A stretch of DNA of 32,000 nt from Candidatus Saccharimonadota bacterium (GCA_026002795.1 BPGA01000001.1:480001-512000), one strand, 5' to 3'; positions 3,367-30,999 are shown, counted from the first letter of the stretch. The notes: generated by a model not told the origin, from the letters alone. Numbers and translations: made by a program.

Positions 3367-5556
3367 TTATTGATTCTCGCTAAGTCCTTTCCTTTCTCTA
3401 ATCTTTCTTATTACATCCTGTTGTAATGCTGCTGGTACTCTTTCAAAAGATTGATCAACTAAAGAGCTTACACCTCTTCCTTCTGTAGCTGATCTTAAAT
3501 CAGAGCTCCAGCCAATCATTTCAGCGACAGGAATTTTTGCTTTTACTTCTGAATCAAATTCTGTTTGTTTAACTTCAAGAAGCTGTCCTCTTTTGCTTCC
3601 TACAAGTTTTGTTATTTCTCCCAAGAATTTGTTAGGAATCTCAATTAGATGCACTTGTAATGGCTCAAGTAAATAAGCTCCTGCTTGTTTCATTGCTTCT
3701 ATTATTGCTTCTCTTACAGCAGGATAAACCTGTGCAGGTCCTCTATGAATTGCATCTTCATGAAGCCTAATATCAACTAAAGAAACCTTTACTTTCATAC
3801 ATGGCTCTCTTGCAAGAGGTCCTTGATCCATTACCATTTCAAATGCATCTAAAACCATTTCAATGACTTCTCCTATATGAACTTCTCCTCTTGTTTCATC
3901 CATAAAAATATTTCCTTTGTAAATATCCTTTACATTTCTTATTTGATCACCACTCCAACCAAGTTTTGATAAAACATTAAATATAACATCTGTTCTTTTT
4001 TTTACTCTTCCTTCAGGTAGCTCGCCAGATTTTATTGCTTCATAGACAGAGTCCTCTAAAGGCTCGACTTTAATGTAAAAACTATTGTGTTTGTTTGGGC
4101 TTCTTCCTTCTATCGCAGGCGATTCTTTTGAAACAGTTTCTCTATAAACAATTATTGGAGGAGAGGTTTTGACATCTAAACCTTTTTCAGTTATTATCCT
4201 ATTTTCAATTATTTCAAGATGAAGTTCGCCCATTCCAGAAATTAAACTTTCTCCTGTTTGTTCATTAATTTCAACTTTAATTGATGGATCTTCTTTTGAA
4301 ACTTTTTTTAAGATGTCAACTAGCTTTGGCAAATCAATTGTTTTTTTTACTTCGATAGATTTTGTAATTACAGGCTCAAAAATATGTTTCAACTCTTCAA
4401 AAGGTGTTTCTGGTTCTAATGTTATTGTTTCTCCAGCCTCTCCACTAATTCCAGATATAGCAATAACATTTCCAGCACTTATTTCTTCAACCTGTTCTGG
4501 CTTTATTCCATTATATATAAAAAGCTGTTGTATTTTTTGTTTTTTATTAGCTAAATTTAAATAAACATCCATTCCAGTTTTTAAAGATCCAGAAAATAAT
4601 CTTCCAGCAGAAATTTCTTTTCCACTTCTTGGATCTATCACAATTCTAGTTATTACAAATGCTGGTTTTCCATTTGGATTACAATTCAATAAATCTTTTC
4701 CAAAACCAGAGTTAAGATCTCCTTTCCATATCTTAGGTATTCTATACTTTTGTGCTTCTATTGGATTAGGAAGATGTTTTACAACCATGTCTAAAAGAAC
4801 CTCATATAAAGGAGCATTCTTCCAACACCATTCTTTTCTTTCTTCTTCATTCATCTCATAAATTTTAAAAATATCTTTAAAATTAATTCCTTTTTTTTGC
4901 ATAAAAGGAACAGAAAGAGCCCAATTTTCTCTCGCAGAACCAAAAGCAACACTTCCATCTTTTATATCAACTAGCCATTTTTCTTTAAACTCTTCTTCTG
5001 CTGTTTTTCTTATTAATTCATTAAATTCATGAAAAATTTTTATAAAGCGTTCTTGCATTTGTTCTGGAGTCAATTTCAACTCTTTAATTAAACGATCAAC
5101 TTTATTTATAAACAAAACAGGTTTTACACGTTCTCTTAAAGCTTGCTTAATAACAGTTTCTGTTTGCGGCATTATTCCCTCTACAGCACAAACTAAAACG
5201 ACAGTTCCATCAATTGCACGCATAGCTCTAGTTACATTACCAGAAAAATCAACATGTCCAGGAGTATCAATTAAATTTATTAGATATTCTTGACCTTGAT
5301 ATTCATGAACCATCGAAACATTTGCAGCATCAACAGTCATAAGCCTTTCTTGCTCGTCTGCATGTTGCCAAGTTGCCATTCCCATTTCAAGACTTCCTGC
5401 GGCTTTTGCAGCCATGTATCCAGAAGCAGCAAGGAGGTTGTCTGTTAAAGCTGTTTTTCCGTGGTGAATGTGTGCTGATGTTGCAATGTTTCTTATATTT
5501 TCACGAATTTTGCTTAACCTTTTTATTTTTTCAATTTGTGTCTCTTTTTCTGCCAT
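3367..5556 (-). CDS. fusA: translation elongation factor aEF-2
   Basis: 729 aa. AHIHHGKT, DTPGH and NKVD motifs, plus the diphthamide-site motif HEDAIHRGPAQ typical of archaeal EF-2. Confidence 0.97.
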   Translation of the reverse strand: MAEKETQIEKIKRLSKIRENIRNIATSAHIHHGKTALTDNLLAASGYMAAKAAGSLEMGMATWQHADEQERLMTVDAANVSMVHEYQGQEYLINLIDTPGHVDFSGNVTRAMRAIDGTVVLVCAVEGIMPQTETVIKQALRERVKPVLFINKVDRLIKELKLTPEQMQERFIKIFHEFNELIRKTAEEEFKEKWLVDIKDGSVAFGSARENWALSVPFMQKKGINFKDIFKIYEMNEEERKEWCWKNAPLYEVLLDMVVKHLPNPIEAQKYRIPKIWKGDLNSGFGKDLLNCNPNGKPAFVITRIVIDPRSGKEISAGRLFSGSLKTGMDVYLNLANKKQKIQQLFIYNGIKPEQVEEISAGNVIAISGISGEAGETITLEPETPFEELKHIFEPVITKSIEVKKTIDLPKLVDILKKVSKEDPSIKVEINEQTGESLISGMGELHLEIIENRIITEKGLDVKTSPPIIVYRETVSKESPAIEGRSPNKHNSFYIKVEPLEDSVYEAIKSGELPEGRVKKRTDVIFNVLSKLGWSGDQIRNVKDIYKGNIFMDETRGEVHIGEVIEMVLDAFEMVMDQGPLAREPCMKVKVSLVDIRLHEDAIHRGPAQVYPAVREAIIEAMKQAGAYLLEPLQVHLIEIPNKFLGEITKLVGSKRGQLLEVKQTEFDSEVKAKIPVAEMIGWSSDLRSATEGRGVSSLVDQSFERVPAALQQDVIRKIRERKGLSENQ

Positions 5557-6756: not shown

Positions 6757-7170
6757 TTAAATAATCTTAAGTTCTTTATTGAAAAAATTCTTTACTATGT
6801 TTCTTAACTCAAGAAAATTTTTCTTTTTTTTACCTATTAAAAGAGCTTTATTTTTTCCAGGATTTATTATTATTTCATTTTCTTTTATTTTAAGAGATCC
6901 AATTTTTATCGGATTTATTATACTTTTTATAAAATAAATTGCGTCTTTTTCTTTTTTAGGGATTATAATAACTCTGACATTTTTATTCAAAATTTTTTTT
7001 ATTTTTTTTACATTATCCTTATTCCTTCCTAAAGACTTGTTGAAAAAATTCCTATCAACAACAAAAAATAAAGAATTGTTGTAAGAAAAACAATATTTTG
7101 CTCTTACTTTAGTAATTCTCTCAAATAAATTTAGATACATTATTTCTTTTATTTCTAGTTTATTTATCAT
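6757..7170 (-). CDS. nusA: archaeal NusA-like protein (two degenerate KH modules)
   Basis: Sits between rpoA and rps12, as in other archaea, and has a two-KH-like layout (…SLGRNKDNVKKIKKIL…, …LLIGKKKKNFLELRNIV…). The track ORF starts at a TTG (7203) that overlaps rpoA. The first ATG (7170, MINKLEIKEIMYL…) is the more likely start. Confidence 0.7.
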   Translation of the reverse strand: MINKLEIKEIMYLNLFERITKVRAKYCFSYNNSLFFVVDRNFFNKSLGRNKDNVKKIKKILNKNVRVIIIPKKEKDAIYFIKSIINPIKIGSLKIKENEIIINPGKNKALLIGKKKKNFLELRNIVKNFFNKELKII

Positions 7171-7183
7171 TTTTAAAAAGAAT

Positions 7184-10100
7184 CTATCTAGAAATACTTT
7201 CAATTATTTCTTCTTTTACACTTTTTTTTTCTGATTCTGGCTTAGCAAGTGGACCTATGACTTTAACAAGTAAACCAGGAAGTCCTGTTCCTACAGGAAC
7301 CGGCTGATTAATTATAACATTTTCTATAACAGAAGAAAGATTATCTTTAGTTCCTTTTATTGTCGCATTAATAAATTGCTTTATTGGAGTCTCAAAAGTT
7401 GCTCTTGCAAGTATTGAAGATTTTTGTGAGATTATTCCTATTCTAGTTACTCCTTTTACCTCACCAGAAGAAGTCATAACATCTGCAATTAATTTTAAAT
7501 GTCTTTTATCTATGTTAAGTCCTTGAGTATTTAAAACTTCAGATATCTCTTTGATGATAAGCTCTCTTGCAGCCTCTATTCCTAAAACTTTTGCTACCTC
7601 ATGAATATCGTTTGATATTGTTTTTTCATTATCTACTTCTTTCATATTCATTACTTTTTCTAAATCTGTTCCTAAAGTTAGGACCACATAATTTTGACCT
7701 CTTTTAACAACTAAAACTTGAGAAATGCCCTTTATTCCAGAGATCATTGTTCTCTTTATTTTTTCTTTGATTTTATAAATCTCTTTAAAACTCGCGTCTG
7801 GAGTATAAATACTGATTGAGTTTTCTTTTTCTCTACAATTAAAACCTAGTTCTTTAAGTCTTTCAACAACTTTTTTAATACCAACATGAATACTTTTTAT
7901 CCCTTCTTTGTCTATTAAAATCCCTATTTTTTTGTTATTGAAATCTACATTTATCTCAGAAGCTATTTCACCAAGTTTTACCTCTTTTATTTTTTCTGCA
8001 AAAATTCTTGCATCTTTTTCATTATTGTAATCTTTCTTAAGATAAATCTCCATTTTTGGAGAAGACGGTTTTTTTCTAGCATCAAAAATTTCTATAAGTC
8101 TAGGCAATCCTTGTGTTATCTGCATTTCAGAAACACCAGCAAAATGGAAAGTTCTTAAAATCATTTGTGTTGAAGGCTCCCCAAAACTTTGTGCAGTTAC
8201 AACACCAATTGCTTCTCCAGGATCTAGTTTTCCTTTAAGATGCAGCTTAGAGACATCTAATCCGTCATCTCCATAAGTAAACTGAATTATGTTATTGTTT
8301 CCATCTCTTACAGTTCCATCATACTCTTTTCTTATATCTTGCAAAGCACTTACTAATCTTCTATAGAGGTAACCAGATTTTGGAGTTCTTAGTGCAGTAT
8401 CCATTAATGATGCTCTTCCAGTCATTGCGCCGAAGAAAAATTCATCAGGATCTAAACCCTTTATATAAGAACTTTTGATAAATCCTCTTGCTCTCGGCGA
8501 TAAATCACCTTTTTTAAAGAAAGGAAGAGTTCTATTTGTATAACCTATTTCAATTCTTTTTCCTTCTAAATCCTGTTGACCGACACAGCAAGCCATTTGA
8601 GTTATGTTTAATACATTTCCTCCACCTCCAGACTTTATCATGTGGGTTACTGGATTGTCTTCAGGAAACTCTTTTTTTATTATCTCACTTATTTTTGTTG
8701 CGGTTTCATTTAAAACTCTTAAAATTTTTATCTCTCTTGACTCTTCTTTTGTTTTACCTTGTATGAGTTCAAGAGTTCCTTCGTTGTACTCTTTAATTAT
8801 TTCTTCTGCTTTTTTCTCTGCTGTTCTTACTATTTCTTCAGTTTCTTCTAAAATCTTTTTACTTACATCTAAATCAGTTAAAGAAATTGTAATTCCTTTG
8901 TTTGTTAAATAATACCTACCAAGATTAAATGCCTTTCTTATTGATTCAAAAGCAACTTCTCTTCCAAAAATTTTATCTATCGATTTTAGCAATTCGCTTG
9001 TTTCATTTCCAAACAAGCTATCATCTATAAATCCTTTGATAATTTCTCCTTCTTTTATTTTTATGTTTTCATTTGAAAAATCTATTTTAGGTAAAACTTT
9101 AGAAAAAACCTCTATTCCAGGTATTGTTTTTTTAGTGAAGTAATGATTTATTTCTGATTTATAAAGTAATTGATTAGCTTCTTCTTTTGTAAAGCTATCA
9201 AAACCAAGTAAATAATTTCCAGTTATTGAGTCTAAAATACAACCAACCCAATTTTTGTTATTCTTAGGAGAAAATAAATTACTTTTTACACCCATTAAAA
9301 CAATTGCTTCTGATCTTGCTTCTTCTGTTTGTGGGCTGTGTATATTCATTTCATCTCCATCAAAATCTGCATTGTAAGGGAATGCAACAGAAGGATGAAG
9401 TCTAAATGTTCTTCCAGGCAAAACTTTTACATAATGAGCTAAAATACTTCCTCTATGTAAACTTGGTTGTCTATTAAACAAAACAATATCTCCATCTATT
9501 AAGTGTCTTTCAACTTGATAACCAGGTTTTATTTCATTTAATATTTCCTCTTTTAGTTCTGGTGTTATTTTTTTTCTTTTTCCGTCTGGTCTTATTATGT
9601 AATTAGCACTAGGGTATTCAGGACTTTTTTCAATCAGTTTTTTTAAGTATTCAATGTTACTATCATTTACTGTTTCATTTACAGTTACTATTTTTGCTAT
9701 TTCATAAGGAACTCCTACTTCATCTATTTCTATTGAAGGATCAGGCGAGACAACTGTTCTCGCACTATAGTTTACTCTTTTACCAGCTAAATTTTTTCTA
9801 ATTCTTCCTTCTTTTCCCTTTATTCTTTCAGCAATTGTCTTTAGAGGTTGACCAGATCTATGTCTTGCTGGAGGTATTTTTGGAACAGTATTATCAAAAA
9901 AAGTTGTAACATGATATTGCAAAAGTTCCCAGAGCTCGTCTATTATTACTTCAGGAGCTCCTGCATTTAAATTTTCCCATAATCTTTGATTTGCTCTAAG
10001 AATGTCTGAAAGTTTATGAGAGAGATCATCTTCACTCCTCTCTCCTGTTTCTAAAATAATACTTGGTCTTACAGTTACAGGAGGAACAAGTAAAACAGTT

Positions 10101-10669
10101 AAGACAGCCCATTCTGGTCTAAAGTGTTTAGCATCTATACCAATTTTTAATAATTCTTCATTTGGAATTTTTACAAGAATTTCTCTTATTTCTGTAGGAT
10201 AAATTCTTGTTTTTCCTCTATAAAATGTTGTTGGTTTCTCAAGCCTTATTTTCTCTTGAAGAGCATTGCAATGAGCGCATCTTTTAGAATCTTTAGCTTT
10301 TTTGACTCTTTGTGTTGGAGTCAATTTTTCTAAATCTTGGTTAGTTATCATTAATTTTCCACAACTATGACAAAAACTTCTTAGACAAAGTTCAATAATT
10401 GGAACATAATTTATATGTATGACAGGTCTTGCTAAATCAATGCTTCCTGGATGGCCTAAACACTCTTTTAATCTTCCACCACAAGTCCTACATCTAACGC
10501 CAGGATCTATTGCACCCAATCTTAAATCCATTAATCCACCATCAACAGGATAACCATCAATATCATAAAGTTCTGGAGTTACAATTTTTGCTACTGAAAT
10601 ATTTTTTATTTTTTCAGGACTTAGCAATTCAAAACTTATTCCACCTATTTTCTTTTTTATGATTTTCAT
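7184..10669 (-). CDS. rpoA: DNA-directed RNA polymerase subunit A, unsplit (A' and A'' regions in one ORF)
   Basis: 1161 aa. A' hallmarks: N-terminal Zn motifs, the catalytic [10 protein letters not shown], and the bridge helix [22 protein letters not shown]. These run without a stop into A'' hallmarks: the trigger-loop region [29 protein letters not shown] and [13 protein letters not shown]. Confidence 0.95.
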   Translation of the reverse strand: [1161 protein letters not shown]

Positions 10670-25024: not shown

Positions 25025-26923
<1,899 letters not shown>

Positions 26924-26946
26924 AAAATACATAAAAAAGCATTAAA

Positions 26947-27225
26947 ATGGGAAAGCTTAAAACACCAGAATGGATATTAGAAGGTTTTGATAGTAAAGAA
27001 GAATGGGAAAAAGCAAAAGGAATAAAAAGCAAAGGAAAACAAAAAGGAACTTTTAATTTAAGGTGTTGCCCAAAATGCGGAAGCTTTGAAGTTTGTGTAG
27101 TTTTAGTAGGTGAAGAAGGAAAAAAAGCTGACTTATGGGAATGTAAAAAGTGTAAATGGAAAGGAAAAAATATAGAAGAAAAATCTCTTTCAGAAGAAGA
27201 TTATTTAAAAGAACTTGAAAAATAA
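26947..27225 (+). CDS. zinc-ribbon protein (92 aa) between gyrB and gyrA
   Basis: CPKCGS…(20 aa)…CKKCKW forms a CxxC…CxxC zinc ribbon, flanked by Lys/Glu-rich tails. Lies 23 nt after gyrB and 7 nt before gyrA, on the same strand. Confidence 0.65.
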   Translation: MGKLKTPEWILEGFDSKEEWEKAKGIKSKGKQKGTFNLRCCPKCGSFEVCVVLVGEEGKKADLWECKKCKWKGKNIEEKSLSEEDYLKELEK

Positions 27226-27232
27226 TTGAAAA

Positions 27233-29653
27233 ATGAAAGACGAAAATAACAAACAAATTATCAATACTGAAATCTCAGAAGAGATGAAAAAATCTTATTT
27301 AGATTATGCTATGTCTGTTATCGTTTCGAGAGCTCTTCCTTCTGTTGAAGATGGATTAAAACCAGTTCAAAGAAGAATTCTTTATTCAATGTATTTAATG
27401 GGTTTAAAGCCAGGAAGCCAGACAAAAAAATCAGCGAGAATAGTTGGAGATGTTTTAGGAAAATTTCATCCCCATGGTGATGTTGCAGTATATGATGCTC
27501 TCGTGAGAATGGCTCAGAACTTTAGTTTAAGATACCCCCTTATTTTTGGCCAAGGAAATTTTGGAAGTATAGACGGAGATCCTCCTGCTGCTATGAGATA
27601 TACAGAAGCAAAACTTATGCCGATATCTTCAGAGTTATTGCAAGATATAGAAAAAGAAACAGTAAATTTTGTTCCTAATTTTGATAATTCATTAAAAGAA
27701 CCAGAGCTTCTTCCAGGAAAAATACCTAATTTAATTATAAATGGCGCATCTGGAATTGCTGTAGGTATGGCTACAAACATACCACCACACAATATTAGAG
27801 AGGTTTGTGATGCTATAATTGCATACATAAAAGACCCTGAAATTCCAGTTCAAAAAATTCTTGAGATTCTTCCAGGCCCCGACTTTCCTACTGGAGGTTA
27901 TGTTTCTGGCGAAATAGAAAAGATTTACAAAGAAGGAAAAGGAAAACTTATAATTAGAGGAAAAGCATCAACAGAAAAAATAAAGAATAAAGAAGCAATT
28001 GTTATAACAGAGATTCCTTATATGTTAAACAAATCAGATCTTTTAACACAAATTGCTGATCTAGTTCAGAAAAAAAAGATTAATGATATTTATGATATAA
28101 GAGACGAAAGTTCAAAAGGAAAGATTAGGATTGTTTTGGAATTAAGAAAAGATTCAAATCCAAAATTTGTCATAAATTATCTCTATAAATACACAAGACT
28201 TCAAGACTCTTTTAACGTTAACTTTTTGGCACTTGTTAATGGCCAGCCAAGAGTTCTGAACATTAAAGATTATTTTAAAGAATATGTAGAGTATAGAAAA
28301 AAAATAATTACAAAAAGAACAAGATTTGAATTGAAAAAATCAGAGGAAAGAATTGAAATTGTTAAAGGCCTTTTAATTGCTTTAAACAACATAGACAAAA
28401 TTATCTCTTTAATCAAAAAATCTAAAAACACAAATGAGGCTTCTGAATCTTTAATAAAGATTTTTAGTTTAACCAAAAAACAAGCATCTGCGATACTTGA
28501 AATGAGACTTCAACAATTAACTTCTCTAGAAAAAGAAAAACTTGAAAAAGAAAAGAAAGAACTCGAAAACAAAATTTTAGAATTCAAAAAAATACTTTCT
28601 GATGTTTCTGAAATTTTAAAAATAATTGTTAAAGAATTGAATGAAATAAAAAATAAATATGGTGATGAAAGAAAAACACAAGTAATAAGCAAAATTTCTG
28701 AAATATCAGAAAAAGACATTATTCAAAAAAAGGAAGTGATAATTATGATAACAGACAAAGGTTATTGCAAAAGAATGGATTTAAAAACATATAAAGAACA
28801 GAAAAGAGGTGGTAAAGGAATTATTGGTAGTGATCTTACGACAGGAGATTTTGTTAAAGAGGTTATTGTTTGTTCTACACACGACTATCTTCTATTTTTT
28901 ACAAACCATGGAAGGGTTTTATGGTTGAAAGCCTATAATGTTCCTGCAGCTGAAAGATATAGCAAAGGAAAAGCGTTAGTTAATCTACTTAACCTGAAAG
29001 AAGAGAGTATAACAAGCGTTATTCCTGTTAAAAGTTTTGACGATTTCTTGTTTATGGCAACGAAAAAAGGAATTGTAAAGAAAATTTCATTAAAACATTT
29101 TTCAAAACCAAGAGCTAGCGGAGTTAGGGCAATAACTCTTCCTTCTGATAATTCAGATTTTCTTATAGGGGTTGAAGTAGTTCATCCAAAAGAAGAAATC
29201 TTATTAGCAACTAAAAATGGTATTGCAATAAGATTTAATTCAGATGAGGTAAGAGATATGAGCAGAAATAGTTATGGAATAACAGGAATAAAACTTGAGG
29301 AAAATGATGAGGTTAGAAGTCTCGAAGTTCTTAGAGATGATACAATTCTTACAATTACAAAAAACGGATATGGAAAAAGAACTCTTGTTTCAGACTATAG
29401 AAAAACTTCTAGAGCTGGTAAAGGTGTTATAAATTTAAAAGTAACTCAAAAAACAGGAGAGGTTGTAAAAACAGCCTCAGTAAATGAAAAAGATTCTATA
29501 ATTATAACAACTGCAAAAGGACTTGTTTTTAGAACAGCTGCAAAAAATGTAAAAGTTATAGGAAGAGCTACGCAAGGAGTTAGAATTCTAAAGCTTCATC
29601 AAGGAGATTTTGTAACAGATTTAATTAGAGTTAAAGAAAATACTGAAGAGTAA
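27233..29653 (+). CDS. gyrA: DNA gyrase subunit A
   Basis: 806 aa. Typical N-terminus with [17 protein letters not shown], the active-site region [10 protein letters not shown], and C-terminal beta-pinwheel repeats. Confidence 0.97.
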
Positions 29654-29721: not shown

Positions 29722-30999
29722 ATGATAGATTTAAAAGATTTGAGAGAAAGGCCTGAAGTTTACATAGAAAACATTAAGAAAAAAGGTCAAGACCCAAATA
29801 TTGTTTCTGAAACTTTAATTCTTGATAAAAAATGGAGAGAAGCAAAAAAAAGAGCTGATTATTTAAGAAAAAAAAGAAATGAAATTTCTCAAGAAATAAA
29901 CGAAGCAAAAAAACAAAAAAAAAGAATTGATGAATTGTTGAAAAAAGCTAAAGCATTGCCCAATCAAATAAGAGAAGCAGAAACAGAAGAAAAAGAAATT
30001 TTTACAGATTTGCAATCTTTTCTTTCTAAAATTCCTAATTTAATGCATAAAGATGTTCCTATTGGCAAATCCGAAAAAGACAACGTTGTTGTTAAAAATG
30101 TTGGGAAACCAAAAAAATTAAATTTTAATGTTAAAAACCATGTAGAAATTTCCGAATCTTTAAATTTAGTGGATTTTGACGCATCTGCAGAAGTTGCAGG
30201 AACCGGATTTTATTACCTTAAGGGAGATTTAGCTCTTTTAAACCAAGCACTTATTAAATTTACAATAGATTTTATGTTAAAAAAAGGCTATACGTATCTA
30301 GAGCCACCATTAATGATAAGAAAAAAAATTGCTATAGCTCAAGGAGATTTTGAGGCATTTAAAAATGCTCTTTATAAAATAGAAGGAGAGGATCTTTATT
30401 TAATTCCTACTGCAGAACATGCAATACTCGGAATGTTATCAAATAAACAAATTCCTGAAGAAAAACTTCCTTTAAGATTTTTTGGTTATAGTATGTGTTT
30501 TAGAAAAGAGATTGGAAGTCACGGAATTAATGAAAAAGGACTTTGGAGAACCCACCAGTTTAATAAAGTTGAGCAGTTTATATTTTGTAAGCCAGAAAAT
30601 AGCTGGGAATGTTATTCTGAATTAATGAAAAACTCTGAAGAAATTCTTAAAAAACTTAAACTTCCATATAGAATAATTGAAATTTGTAGCGCTGAGCTAG
30701 GAAATTGGAAAGCAAGAAGTCATGATTTTGAAGTTTGGAGGCCAACTCTGAAAACTTATGGAGAGGTTATGTCTTTAAGCAATTGTACTGATTATCAGTC
30801 AAGAGAGCTAAACATTAGAGGTATAAGAAAAAACGGAGAAAGGTTTTTTTTGCATACACTAAATAACACTGCACTTGCTACTTCTAGGATTATGGTTGCA
30901 ATATTAGAAAACTATCAAAAAAAAGACGGAAGTGTTGAAATTCCAGAAGCAATTAGAAAGTATATGAATGGAAAAAAGATAATTAAACCTTCAAACTAG
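29722..30999 (+). CDS. serS: seryl-tRNA synthetase
   Basis: 425 aa. N-terminal coiled-coil arm, class II motifs (…FRKEIGSHG…, …TLNNTALATSRIMVAILENYQ…). Confidence 0.96.
   Translation: MIDLKDLRERPEVYIENIKKKGQDPNIVSETLILDKKWREAKKRADYLRKKRNEISQEINEAKKQKKRIDELLKKAKALPNQIREAETEEKEIFTDLQSFLSKIPNLMHKDVPIGKSEKDNVVVKNVGKPKKLNFNVKNHVEISESLNLVDFDASAEVAGTGFYYLKGDLALLNQALIKFTIDFMLKKGYTYLEPPLMIRKKIAIAQGDFEAFKNALYKIEGEDLYLIPTAEHAILGMLSNKQIPEEKLPLRFFGYSMCFRKEIGSHGINEKGLWRTHQFNKVEQFIFCKPENSWECYSELMKNSEEILKKLKLPYRIIEICSAELGNWKARSHDFEVWRPTLKTYGEVMSLSNCTDYQSRELNIRGIRKNGERFFLHTLNNTALATSRIMVAILENYQKKDGSVEIPEAIRKYMNGKKIIKPSN

What the first reader, a model, noticed from the sequence alone, without database searches (positions are those of the whole stretch)
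26947..27225. Zinc-ribbon mini-protein encoded between gyrB and gyrA: candidate gyrase partner or modulator
gyrB and gyrA are normally adjacent or unlinked. Here a 92-aa ORF fills the gap, 23 nt after gyrB and 7 nt before gyrA, on the same strand: MGKLKTPEWILEGFDSKEEWEKAKGIKSKGKQKGTFNLRCCPKCGSFEVCVVLVGEEGKKADLWECKKCKWKGKNIEEKSLSEEDYLKELEK. It has a CxxC-x20-CxxC zinc ribbon with charged tails. The arrangement implies co-transcription with both gyrase subunits. By analogy only, E. coli YacG is a small zinc-finger protein that binds GyrB and inhibits gyrase. I see no sequence similarity to YacG. A dedicated Zn-ribbon accessory factor for an archaeal gyrase would be new.
Basis: partly seen in the sequence, partly recalled or inferred. 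Interest (0 to 1): 0.62.

Follow-up and report, generated by a model that had tools for sequence, protein, structure and literature searches.

The report
Zinc-ribbon gene inside archaeal gyrase operon
A small, previously undescribed zinc-binding protein is encoded between the two DNA gyrase genes in this tiny DPANN archaeon and in dozens of related species, which makes it a credible but unproven candidate for a new gyrase helper protein.

Summary
The 92-aa ORF (26947..27225, +) is real. It lies 23 nt after gyrB and 7 nt before gyrA. It matches no Pfam, NCBIfam, PHROG or PDB family. It has more than 140 homologues at 47-77% identity, and dN/dS among close pairs is 0.05-0.19.

Strong full-length homologues were found only in the window's own GTDB family, whose records are labelled Pacearchaeota, Woesearchaeota or Nanoarchaeota. 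Every locus that could be judged had the gene in the gyrB-gyrA operon: 7 of 7 metagenome contigs, 46 of 50 named genome contigs (the other 4 are cut by contig ends), and 55 of 59 sampled species genomes. More than 40 unrelated passenger gene families come and go around it.

Three results temper the gyrase reading:
- The Zn-ribbon core is homologous (hhalign 98%) to a short Zn-ribbon family that is widespread in the phylum away from gyrase.
- Five genomes of the family keep gyrBA without any such gene.
- No interaction could be tested.

Best reading (about 40%): a dispensable, lineage-specific gyrase accessory or modulator that works like YacG but is not related to it. Main rival (about 33%): a general Zn-ribbon protein kept there by history.

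Earlier agents of this scan reached the same reading on other genomes.

The parts
25034..26923 (+). gyrB (629 aa), first gene of the operon
   Evidence: Pfam HATPase_c, DNA_gyraseB, Toprim and DNA_gyraseB_C, all above cut-off. Upstream neighbours are on the opposite strand.
26924..26946 (+). 23-nt gyrB-ORF spacer
   Evidence: Sequence read directly. It is too short for an independent promoter plus terminator.
26947..27225 (+). 92-aa CPxCG zinc-ribbon protein ('family A'), the finding
   Evidence: AF2 model with mean pLDDT 75.8.
26953..26994 (+). N-terminal conserved motif KLxTPxWIxEG[FY]DS (residues 3-16), specific to family A
   Evidence: Consensus of alignment A1. The short paralogue family B lacks it. 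Predicted as short helices H8-11 and H17-23.
27016..27051 (+). Lys-rich linker (residues 24-35)
   Evidence: Its length and sequence vary among homologues, but it stays basic.
27052..27189 (+). Zinc-ribbon core (residues 36-81): C41-P-K-C44-G ... W64-E-C66-K-K-C69-K-W-K-G73
   Evidence: W64, C66, C69 and G73 are invariant. C41, P42 and C44 are at least 90% conserved. Four predicted strands: E36-40, 49-52, 63-66 and 77-81. hhalign to family B: probability 98%, E 2.7e-13.
27193..27219 (+). C-terminal amphipathic acidic helix (residues 83-91; family consensus ExEFxKYLDEKGEEVA)
   Evidence: H83-91.
27226..27232 (+). 7-nt ORF-gyrA spacer
27233..29653 (+). gyrA (806 aa), last gyrase gene; serS follows at 29722..30999
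   Evidence: Pfam DNA_topoisoIV (E 4e-163) and six DNA_gyraseA_C repeats. SerRS identified.

Best explanation
The ORF encodes a real, translated small zinc-ribbon protein, called family A here. It is made from the same transcript as GyrB and GyrA.

What is shown: the gene is under strong purifying selection. Strong full-length homologues were found only in one family-level clade of Pacearchaeota-like Nanoarchaeia (DPANN). In that clade it was found only inside the gyrB-gyrA operon. Its zinc-ribbon core descends from a widespread short CPxCG zinc-ribbon family (family B). Family A added a Trp-containing N-terminal motif (KLxTPxWIxEGYDS) and a C-terminal amphipathic acidic helix.

What is inferred: the two added segments, together with the invariant Trp (W64) next to the second zinc knuckle, dock the protein onto the gyrase A2B2 core (GyrB and/or GyrA). 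There it acts as a non-catalytic accessory factor that tunes assembly, DNA binding or supercoiling set-point. This would be functionally like the proteobacterial zinc-finger protein YacG, but of independent origin. It is not an obligate subunit, because some sister genera run gyrBA without it.
For: Real gene:
- 142 homologues.
- dN/dS 0.045-0.19.
- Single copy.

Position:
- 7 of 7 distinct metagenome contigs have it between gyrB and gyrA.
- 46 of 50 named GTDB-species contigs have it there. The other 4 are cut by contig ends but still sit next to gyrB or gyrA.
- In a 121-genome sample of the family there are 59 strong hits. Of these, 54 lie on the same contig and strand within 2 kb upstream of gyrA. 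Four of the five exceptions were fetched. Three are gyrB-A loci that are cut, or whose gyrA is cut, by a contig end, and the fourth (G477) is the counter-example listed under evidence against. The fifth (G405) was not examined.

Stability against turnover:
- The gap holds 46 clusters of other genes (cupin, NUDIX, HD, cytidylyltransferase and others) that differ from genome to genome, on either side of A, while A stays.

Coupling:
- Spacers to neighbouring genes are mostly between -4 and +12 nt. In the window they are 23 and 7 nt.

Specificity:
- Strong full-length hits occur only in family f1 of a 401-genome phylum sample.
- None in viral contigs or PHROGs.
- No housekeeping Zn-ribbon family matches.

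Precedent:
- YacG is a 65-aa zinc-finger protein that binds GyrB through an inserted Trp and reaches GyrA (PMC10886550, read; PMC4083091, abstract).
Against: - There is no physical or predicted interaction.
- The Zn-ribbon core is homologous to family B-like proteins found in 158 of 401 genomes of the phylum sample. Outside f1, the 15 such loci inspected had no gyrase within 1.5 kb, and a few lie in genomes where no gyrA was found.
- The window genome has no separate family-B gene. Family A could therefore simply be this lineage's copy of a general-purpose protein.
- The gyrB-gyrA gap collects unrelated genes throughout this order, so location alone is weaker evidence here than elsewhere.
- Five genomes of the same family (G218, G237, G272, G348, G354; 92-96% complete) have gyrA but no A or B match. 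In G348 and G237 the gyrB-gyrA gap is 135-209 nt with no ORF.
- In G477, gyrB-A is followed by a convergent gene and gyrA is on another contig.
- A shows no preference for the gyrB side or the gyrA side of the gap: 15 against 17 loci.
Confidence: 0.4

Rival explanations
1. General-purpose small zinc-ribbon protein. Family A is just this lineage's version of the widespread short CPxCG zinc ribbon (family B-like). Its job would be unrelated to gyrase, for example nucleic-acid or protein binding in translation, transcription or chromatin. It landed in the permissive gyrB-gyrA gap in the family's ancestor and has stayed because it hitch-hikes on a strongly expressed essential operon.
For: - hhalign A against B: probability 98%.
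- B-like genes are in 158 of 401 genomes in varied contexts not near gyrase.
- The window genome has A but no separate B.
- The gap holds at least 46 unrelated gene clusters.
- Sister families f2 and f3 carry other small ORFs in the gap instead.
- Five family members lack A and B yet keep gyrBA.
- The Lys-rich linker and overall basic core fit nucleic-acid binding.
Against: - In a gap where everything else turns over, A is the one constant across more than 80 genera.
- Of the 58 strong full-length A hits whose surroundings were examined, none lay outside the gyrase operon.
- The A-specific N- and C-terminal extensions are as conserved as the core. That points to a new, specific function gained after it settled in the operon.
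- When A and B co-occur, both sit in the gap in a fixed B-A order.
Confidence: 0.33
2. Operon autoregulator. The protein is a small zinc-finger transcription regulator that senses DNA topology or binds the gyrBA promoter and tunes expression of the operon. The Halobacterium CPxCG protein Brz does this for the gene directly downstream of it.
For: - The protein has a CPxCG motif and small size, and sits upstream of and in the same orientation as gyrA.
- Brz is encoded directly upstream of bop and regulates its transcription (PMC2253796).
- The linker is basic.
Against: - It lies inside the transcription unit, not upstream of it.
- Short or overlapping spacers to its neighbours are what one expects for subunits made in similar amounts, not for a regulator made in small amounts.
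- There is no helix-turn-helix or other recognised DNA-reading element.
- Its position relative to gyrA varies, with up to four genes in between.
Confidence: 0.12
3. Mobile or conflict-related cargo. The gap is a variable island, and the zinc ribbon is part of island biology. It could be an immunity factor against gyrase-targeting toxins, or a remnant of an integrated element, rather than a normal gyrase partner.
For: - Gene content in the gap is highly variable, including NUDIX, HD, TIR-like/nucleoside deoxyribosyltransferase-like and MazG-like genes.
- Inteins sit in gyrB and gyrA of relatives.
- Many known protein modulators of gyrase come from conflict systems (PMC10886550).
Against: - No hit in IMG/VR viral contigs or PHROGs.
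- No integrase or repeats were seen in the gap ORFs inspected.
- The gene is vertically conserved at 50-77% identity with low dN/dS, unlike fast-turning cargo.
Confidence: 0.08
4. Chance or non-functional ORF.
For: Nothing beyond its small size.
Against: 142 homologues, invariant Cys/Trp/Gly columns, and dN/dS near 0.1.
Confidence: 0.01

Closest known systems
YacG (E. coli endogenous gyrase inhibitor/protector; Pfam PF03884; PDB 1LV3, 4TMA)
   Same: Both are small proteins (65 against 92 aa) with a four-Cys zinc site, a functionally critical or invariant Trp, and flexible tails. YacG binds GyrB and reaches GyrA (PMC10886550). This is the proposed 'works like' model.
   Different: - No sequence or profile similarity. 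PF03884 is absent from the Pfam hits at E<=1, and no YacG chain appears among PDB profile hits at E<=10 or among the 50 Foldseek matches listed.
- The Cys spacing differs: CxxC-x21-CxxC here.
- By general knowledge, not checked here, yacG is not encoded in the gyrase operon.
- The lineage is archaeal, not proteobacterial.
- No binding has been shown for the archaeal protein.
Small CPxCG-related zinc-finger proteins of archaea (for example Brz of Halobacterium salinarum, PMC2253796)
   Same: Both are small archaeal proteins with a CPxCG knuckle plus a second CxxC. Brz is also encoded just upstream of, and co-oriented with, the gene it acts on.
   Different: This is a loose motif class, not a homologous family. 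Pfam Zn_ribbon_Brz is not among the window protein's hits. The class is described from haloarchaea, and function is known for very few members.
Short zinc-ribbon 'family B' of Nanoarchaeia
   Same: The zinc-ribbon cores are homologous (hhalign probability 98%, E 2.7e-13). B also sits in the gyrB-gyrA gap in part of the same family, alone or directly before A.
   Different: B is 44-90 aa and lacks the N-terminal KLxTPxWIxEGYDS motif and the C-terminal helix. It ends in an invariant F-P motif. B-like genes occur in many other families away from gyrase.
TFS/RpoM-type C-terminal zinc ribbons (TFS4, NCBIfam NF047723; PDB 7OQY chain Y)
   Same: These are the best, though insignificant, sequence and fold neighbours. 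They are generic three-stranded zinc ribbons with CPxCG...CxxC.
   Different: The score is 19.6 bits against a cut-off of 120. PDB profile E is 0.03 and Foldseek E is 0.9. No TFS N-terminal domain or acidic-loop architecture is present.

Membership tests
YacG (PF03884) | Match to the YacG profile or to solved YacG chains | tested here: not met
   PF03884 is not among the Pfam hits at E<=1. The profile of 57 homologues against all PDB chains at E<=10 lists no YacG entry. No YacG chain appears among the 50 listed Foldseek PDB matches at E<=10.
YacG (PF03884) | Four-cysteine zinc site in a protein of about 65 aa | tested here: inconclusive
   Four conserved Cys are present (C41, C44, C66, C69). 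The spacing is CxxC-x21-CxxC and the predicted fold is a generic zinc ribbon. Metal binding was not measured.
YacG (PF03884) | Direct binding to GyrB and inhibition of gyrase DNA binding | not testable with these tools
   No multimer prediction and no experiment were available. Only operon co-location is known.
CPxCG-related small zinc-finger proteins (Tarasov et al. 2008, PMC2253796) | Small archaeal protein with a C-P-x-C-G knuckle and a second CxxC | tested here: met
   C41-P42-K43-C44-G45 and C66-K-K-C69 in a 92-aa protein. C41, P42 and C44 are at least 90% conserved. This is a motif class, not proof of homology.
Zinc-ribbon fold | Two zinc knuckles on a three- or four-stranded antiparallel sheet | tested here: inconclusive
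   AF2 predicts strands E36-40, 49-52, 63-66 and 77-81 with the CxxC pairs in the turns, at pLDDT about 76. The nearest Foldseek hits are zinc ribbons of Rpb2, RPA70 and L37Ae, all with E above 0.1.
   hhalign probability 97.97%, E 2.7e-13, 44 aligned columns.
   The window protein has K-N-I-E at that place and carries a 38-residue N-terminal extension. It is therefore a distinct subfamily.
Housekeeping Zn-ribbon proteins (TFS/RpoM, L37Ae, S27Ae, Nop10, Elf1) | Score above the curated cut-off, or a significant E-value | tested here: not met
   TFS4 scores 19.6 bits against a cut-off of 120. PDB profile E-values are 0.03 to 8. Source labels such as 'Elf1', 'S27AE' and 'FdhE' on single homologues contradict each other and have no recorded Pfam support.
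Canonical gyrase subunit domain split off from GyrA or GyrB | GyrA or GyrB of this genome lacks a canonical domain that the ORF would supply | tested here: not met
   GyrB has all four Pfam domains end to end, and GyrA has DNA_topoisoIV plus six CTD blades. No fusion of the ribbon to GyrA or GyrB was seen among 52 representative clusters, the phylum sample or 15 extra-long GyrA frames.

The most novel reading that the evidence does not exclude
Family A is a bona fide regulatory component of archaeal gyrase. It would dock at the GyrB-GyrA interface through its invariant Trp-bearing zinc knuckle and its lineage-specific N-terminal motif. That would make it a convergent archaeal counterpart of YacG that is hard-wired into the operon. 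Together with the very acidic helical 'family C' protein that often follows it (a possible DNA mimic, or a trans-acting equivalent of the acidic GyrA tail), it would form a built-in gyrase control module in organisms that acquired a bacterial enzyme.
Probability: 0.15. Interest if true: 0.8.

Novelty: new variant of a known kind. Interest (0 to 1): 0.55.

Why it matters
DNA gyrase is treated as a two-subunit enzyme. The archaeal gyrase literature read here mentions no accessory protein (Villain et al. 2022, PMC9348778; the 2024 review PMC11894792). An undescribed protein family kept inside the gyrase operon of dozens of DPANN species gives a concrete, cheap target for asking how a bacterial-type topoisomerase was fitted into archaeal cells. 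The test needs only three small genes that can be expressed in E. coli. If the protein binds gyrase, it would be a second, independently evolved zinc-finger regulator of the enzyme, and it would mark a new regulatory surface. If it does not, the locus is still a clean example of an essential operon acting as a landing pad for small genes in reduced genomes.

Tried and rejected
- Pfam, NCBIfam and PHROGs on the protein gave only sub-threshold generic Zn-ribbon noise.
- A PDB profile search and Foldseek on the AF2 model gave nothing significant.
- I looked for Rosetta-stone fusions of the ribbon to GyrA or GyrB. This followed an earlier scan note about a GyrA with a CxxC tail. None appeared among the representative hits or the phylum sample. 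The 15 longest GyrA frames of the phylum carry long acidic tails, not zinc ribbons.
- I tested whether the ~47-aa Zn-ribbon in front of gyrA in other families is the same thing. It follows scpB and stays with scpB when gyrA is 1.5 kb away, so it is a different association. It was not compared by profile.
- The search for related loci with the alignment failed because no stretch was conserved enough. It was repeated with the single protein.
- A viral contig scan found no relatives.
- The first dN/dS script timed out and was rewritten.
- I considered building an artificial read-through fusion of the ORF with gyrA for single-chain AF2. I dropped it because the tool returns no inter-residue confidence, so docking could not have been judged.
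- I considered a mirror-tree or co-evolution test and dropped it for lack of control proteins from the same genomes.

Full report
**Observation**

The window carries an ATG-started 92-aa ORF at 26947..27225 on the + strand. It lies 23 nt after the stop of gyrB (25034..26923) and 7 nt before the start of gyrA (27233..29653). Pfam confirms both gyrase subunits with complete domain sets, so the ORF is not a detached gyrase domain. The conserved cysteines are C41, C44, C66 and C69. The surrounding genes are RpoB, Rpo1, EF-2, Kae1, L7Ae, S28e and SerRS. The assembly is a 535-kb single contig, about 90% complete. Together these mark a DPANN archaeon. The gene is single-copy.

**Is it a real gene?**

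Yes.
- The word-indexed search found 142 homologues of 82-148 aa at 47-77% identity.
- The exhaustive search of 50%-identity representatives found 52 clusters, 22 of them below 1e-10.
- An alignment of 57 members (A1) has W64, C66, C69 and G73 invariant, and C41, P42 and C44 nearly so.
- The alignment also shows a conserved N-terminal motif, KLxTPxWIxEG[FY]DS, and a conserved C-terminal helix, ExEFxKYLDEKGEEVA.
- dN/dS in 25 close pairs is 0.045-0.19.
- AF2 with this alignment gives a moderate model (pLDDT 75.8). It has two short N-terminal helices, a four-stranded zinc ribbon and a C-terminal helix.

**Does it belong to a known family?**

No. Pfam, NCBIfam and PHROGs give nothing above cut-off. 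The best hits are generic zinc ribbons: Zn_ribbon_IS1595 at 17 bits and TFS4 at 19.6 bits against a cut-off of 120. A profile search of all PDB sequences (best E 0.03, TFS4/RpoM) and Foldseek on the model (best E 0.12, the Rpb2 zinc ribbon) are not significant. Neither lists YacG. The names that sources give to single homologues ('Elf1', 'S27AE', 'FdhE', 'transposase-like') contradict each other and are unsupported. The protein fits the loose class of archaeal 'CPxCG' small zinc-finger proteins (PMC2253796).

**Where is it found?**

- All seven distinct metagenome contigs examined have the gene between gyrB and gyrA on the same strand.
- A scan of one genome per GTDB species returned 50 loci. 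Their submitters labelled them Pacearchaeota, Woesearchaeota or Nanoarchaeota. In 46 the gene lies between gyrB and gyrA. The other four are cut by contig ends but still have gyrB or gyrA next to it.
- In a 401-genome sample of the phylum, strong full-length matches (E below 1e-28) occur only in the window's own family, f1. gyrA itself is present in 371 of 401 genomes.
- In a 121-genome sample of f1, 112 genomes have gyrA and 84 match the profile.
- Of the 59 strong matches in that sample, 54 lie on the same contig and strand within 2 kb upstream of gyrA.
- I fetched four of the five exceptions. One (G466) has the gene inside a 4.2-kb gap holding six other genes, with gyrA cut by the contig end. 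Two (G497, G491) are gyrB-A at a contig end. One (G477) has gyrB-90aa-A followed by a convergent gene, with gyrA on another contig.
- No relatives were found in viral contigs.

**The gap is a variable island with one constant**

Across 70 non-redundant loci the gyrB-gyrA interval ranges from 32 nt to 4.4 kb. It holds 46 clusters of other genes, including cupin/mannose-6-P-isomerase-like, cytidylyltransferase-like, NUDIX, HD, nucleoside-deoxyribosyltransferase/TIR-like, SIS, MazG-like and GGACT. These differ from genome to genome and sit on either side of the zinc-ribbon gene. The zinc-ribbon gene is next to gyrB in 15 loci, next to gyrA in 17, internal in 24 and alone in 5. The window has this minimal 'alone' form. 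Spacers to neighbouring genes are mostly between -4 and +12 nt, which indicates one tightly packed transcription unit.

Two other small families recur in the gap.
- Family B is a short zinc ribbon with the pattern CPxCGSxxV...CxxCGYxGxxFPE. It always sits directly before A when both are present, and it is the only ribbon in some genera.
- Family C is a very acidic helical protein of 54-105 aa. It always sits after A.

The window genome has neither B nor C.

**Origin**

hhalign relates the A and B cores (probability 98%, E 2.7e-13). B-like proteins are found at E<=1e-5 in 158 of 401 genomes of the phylum sample, in many families. Outside f1, none of the 15 loci inspected has gyrB or gyrA within 1.5 kb. 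A few B-like matches occur in genomes where no gyrA was found. Sister families of the same order also have gyrB and gyrA linked, but with unrelated small ORFs in between. In 10 of 11 more distant genomes gyrB is not near gyrA. There, gyrA usually follows scpB and a different ~47-aa zinc ribbon that stays with scpB.

The simplest history is this. A copy of a widespread short zinc ribbon settled in the gyrBA gap of the f1 ancestor. It then duplicated, and one copy gained the N- and C-terminal extensions that define family A.

**What it most likely does**

The gene-order signal is strong for A specifically. It is the only constant in a gap that otherwise turns over. Every strong A hit whose surroundings were examined lay in the gyrase operon. 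Its lineage-specific extensions are as conserved as the zinc site.

My preferred reading (about 0.40) is therefore a non-catalytic gyrase accessory or modulator. The zinc ribbon would serve as a scaffold. The invariant W64 and the Trp-bearing N-terminal motif would serve as docking elements. The precedent is YacG, whose zinc finger contacts GyrB through an inserted tryptophan and whose tail reaches GyrA (PMC10886550; PMC4083091). All of this is inference.

It cannot be an obligate subunit. Five f1 genomes at 92-96% completeness (G218, G237, G272, G348, G354) have gyrA but no A or B match. In the two inspected (G348, G237), the gyrB-gyrA gap is 135-209 nt with no ORF.

**Rivals**

- About 0.33: A is merely this lineage's copy of a general-purpose zinc ribbon, parked in a permissive, highly expressed operon. 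This is supported by the homology to B-like genes elsewhere, by the absence of a separate B gene in the window genome, and by the promiscuity of the gap.
- About 0.12: a Brz-like autoregulator of the operon (PMC2253796).
- About 0.08: island or conflict cargo, such as immunity to gyrase poisons.
- About 0.01: a chance ORF. Conservation excludes this.

**Novelty**

I found no description of this family or of any archaeal gyrase accessory protein. This covers the archaeal gyrase phylogenomics paper (PMC9348778), the 2024 review of archaeal DNA topology (PMC11894792), the review of protein inhibitors of gyrase (PMC10886550) and two further full-text searches.

Earlier agents of this scan independently reported the same zinc-ribbon family, its acidic companion and the YacG analogy on other genomes. 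I re-derived those points here. What I add, as far as the earlier notes shown to me go:
- the homology to a widespread gyrase-unlinked short family;
- the dN/dS figures;
- the loss in three genera;
- the resolution of the apparent exceptions;
- the negative search for fusions to GyrA.

**Verdict**

This is an undescribed, lineage-restricted zinc-ribbon family fixed in the gyrase operon. It is a worthwhile, cheaply testable candidate gyrase modulator, with a serious chance that the location is historical.

Noticed in passing
L007:5279-5476; also L010:3218-3502, L014:1325-1522, L016:1833-2138, L019:1844-2008, L044:4663-4863: A very acidic, Cys-free helical protein of 54-105 aa ('family C', core IEFSLxxDEIxEWIxKLxxLKxxK...LxINY) recurs directly after the zinc-ribbon gene and before gyrA in many relatives. 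It has no Pfam or PHROG match. No match at E<=1 was found in the window genome.
   Followed up: partly
L003:4846-4998; L018:1258-1491; L021:1348-1521; L033:1468-1668; L048:684-827: A short zinc-ribbon paralogue ('family B', 44-90 aa, invariant C-P-x-C ... C-x-x-C ... F-P) sits directly before family A, or replaces it, in the gyrB-gyrA gap. B-like genes occur in 158 of 401 genomes of the phylum sample in unrelated contexts.
   Followed up: yes
gyrB-gyrA intervals of L001-L110 (for example L095, a 4.4-kb gap with ten ORFs; L134 = G466:C47, 4.2 kb with seven genes): In this order of DPANN archaea the gyrB-gyrA interval acts as a landing pad. It holds 46 clusters of unrelated passenger genes (cupin, NUDIX, HD, cytidylyltransferase, SIS, MazG-like, TIR/deoxyribosyltransferase-like, and a small membrane Cys-rich protein), all co-oriented and tightly packed.
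   Followed up: partly
L050-L060 (for example L060:4111-4794 scpB, 4797-4931 zinc ribbon, gyrA from about 4950): Outside the window's family, gyrA usually stands without gyrB. It is preceded by a winged-helix protein, ScpB (PF04079, E 1e-32 to 1e-37) and a separate ~47-aa zinc ribbon (CPKCxxxMKY...RKxCVYCGxSF). That ribbon stays with scpB when gyrA is farther away.
   Followed up: partly
L111-L123 (GyrA of other Nanoarchaeia families): Many GyrA proteins in the phylum carry Glu/Asp-rich C-terminal tails of about 55-195 residues, and sometimes acidic N-terminal leaders. The window's GyrA ends right after the last CTD blade. This recalls the regulatory acidic tail of E. coli GyrA, and it invites the thought that the acidic family C protein supplies this in trans.
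   Followed up: no
L001:1-4335 (gyrB); L006:5493-9257 (gyrA); many f1 genomes with split PF00521 matches in 1200-1660-aa frames: Inteins (Intein_splicing plus LAGLIDADG_3) interrupt gyrB and gyrA in many relatives, at one or more recurrent sites near residues 80-92 of the GyrA catalytic domain. The window's genes have no intein.
   Followed up: no
L136 = G477:C27:1-6000: This is the only counter-example to full synteny. gyrB, a 90-aa ORF and a 126-aa family A gene are followed by a convergent 880-aa gene, and gyrA lies on another contig. If the assembly is right, A stayed with gyrB.
   Followed up: partly
window 7184..10669 (-): RNA polymerase subunit Rpo1 is a single 1160-aa ORF that covers Rpb1 domains 1-5. 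Most archaea split it into the A'/A'' pair. A 148-aa ORF with no Pfam match follows at 6757..7203.
   Followed up: no
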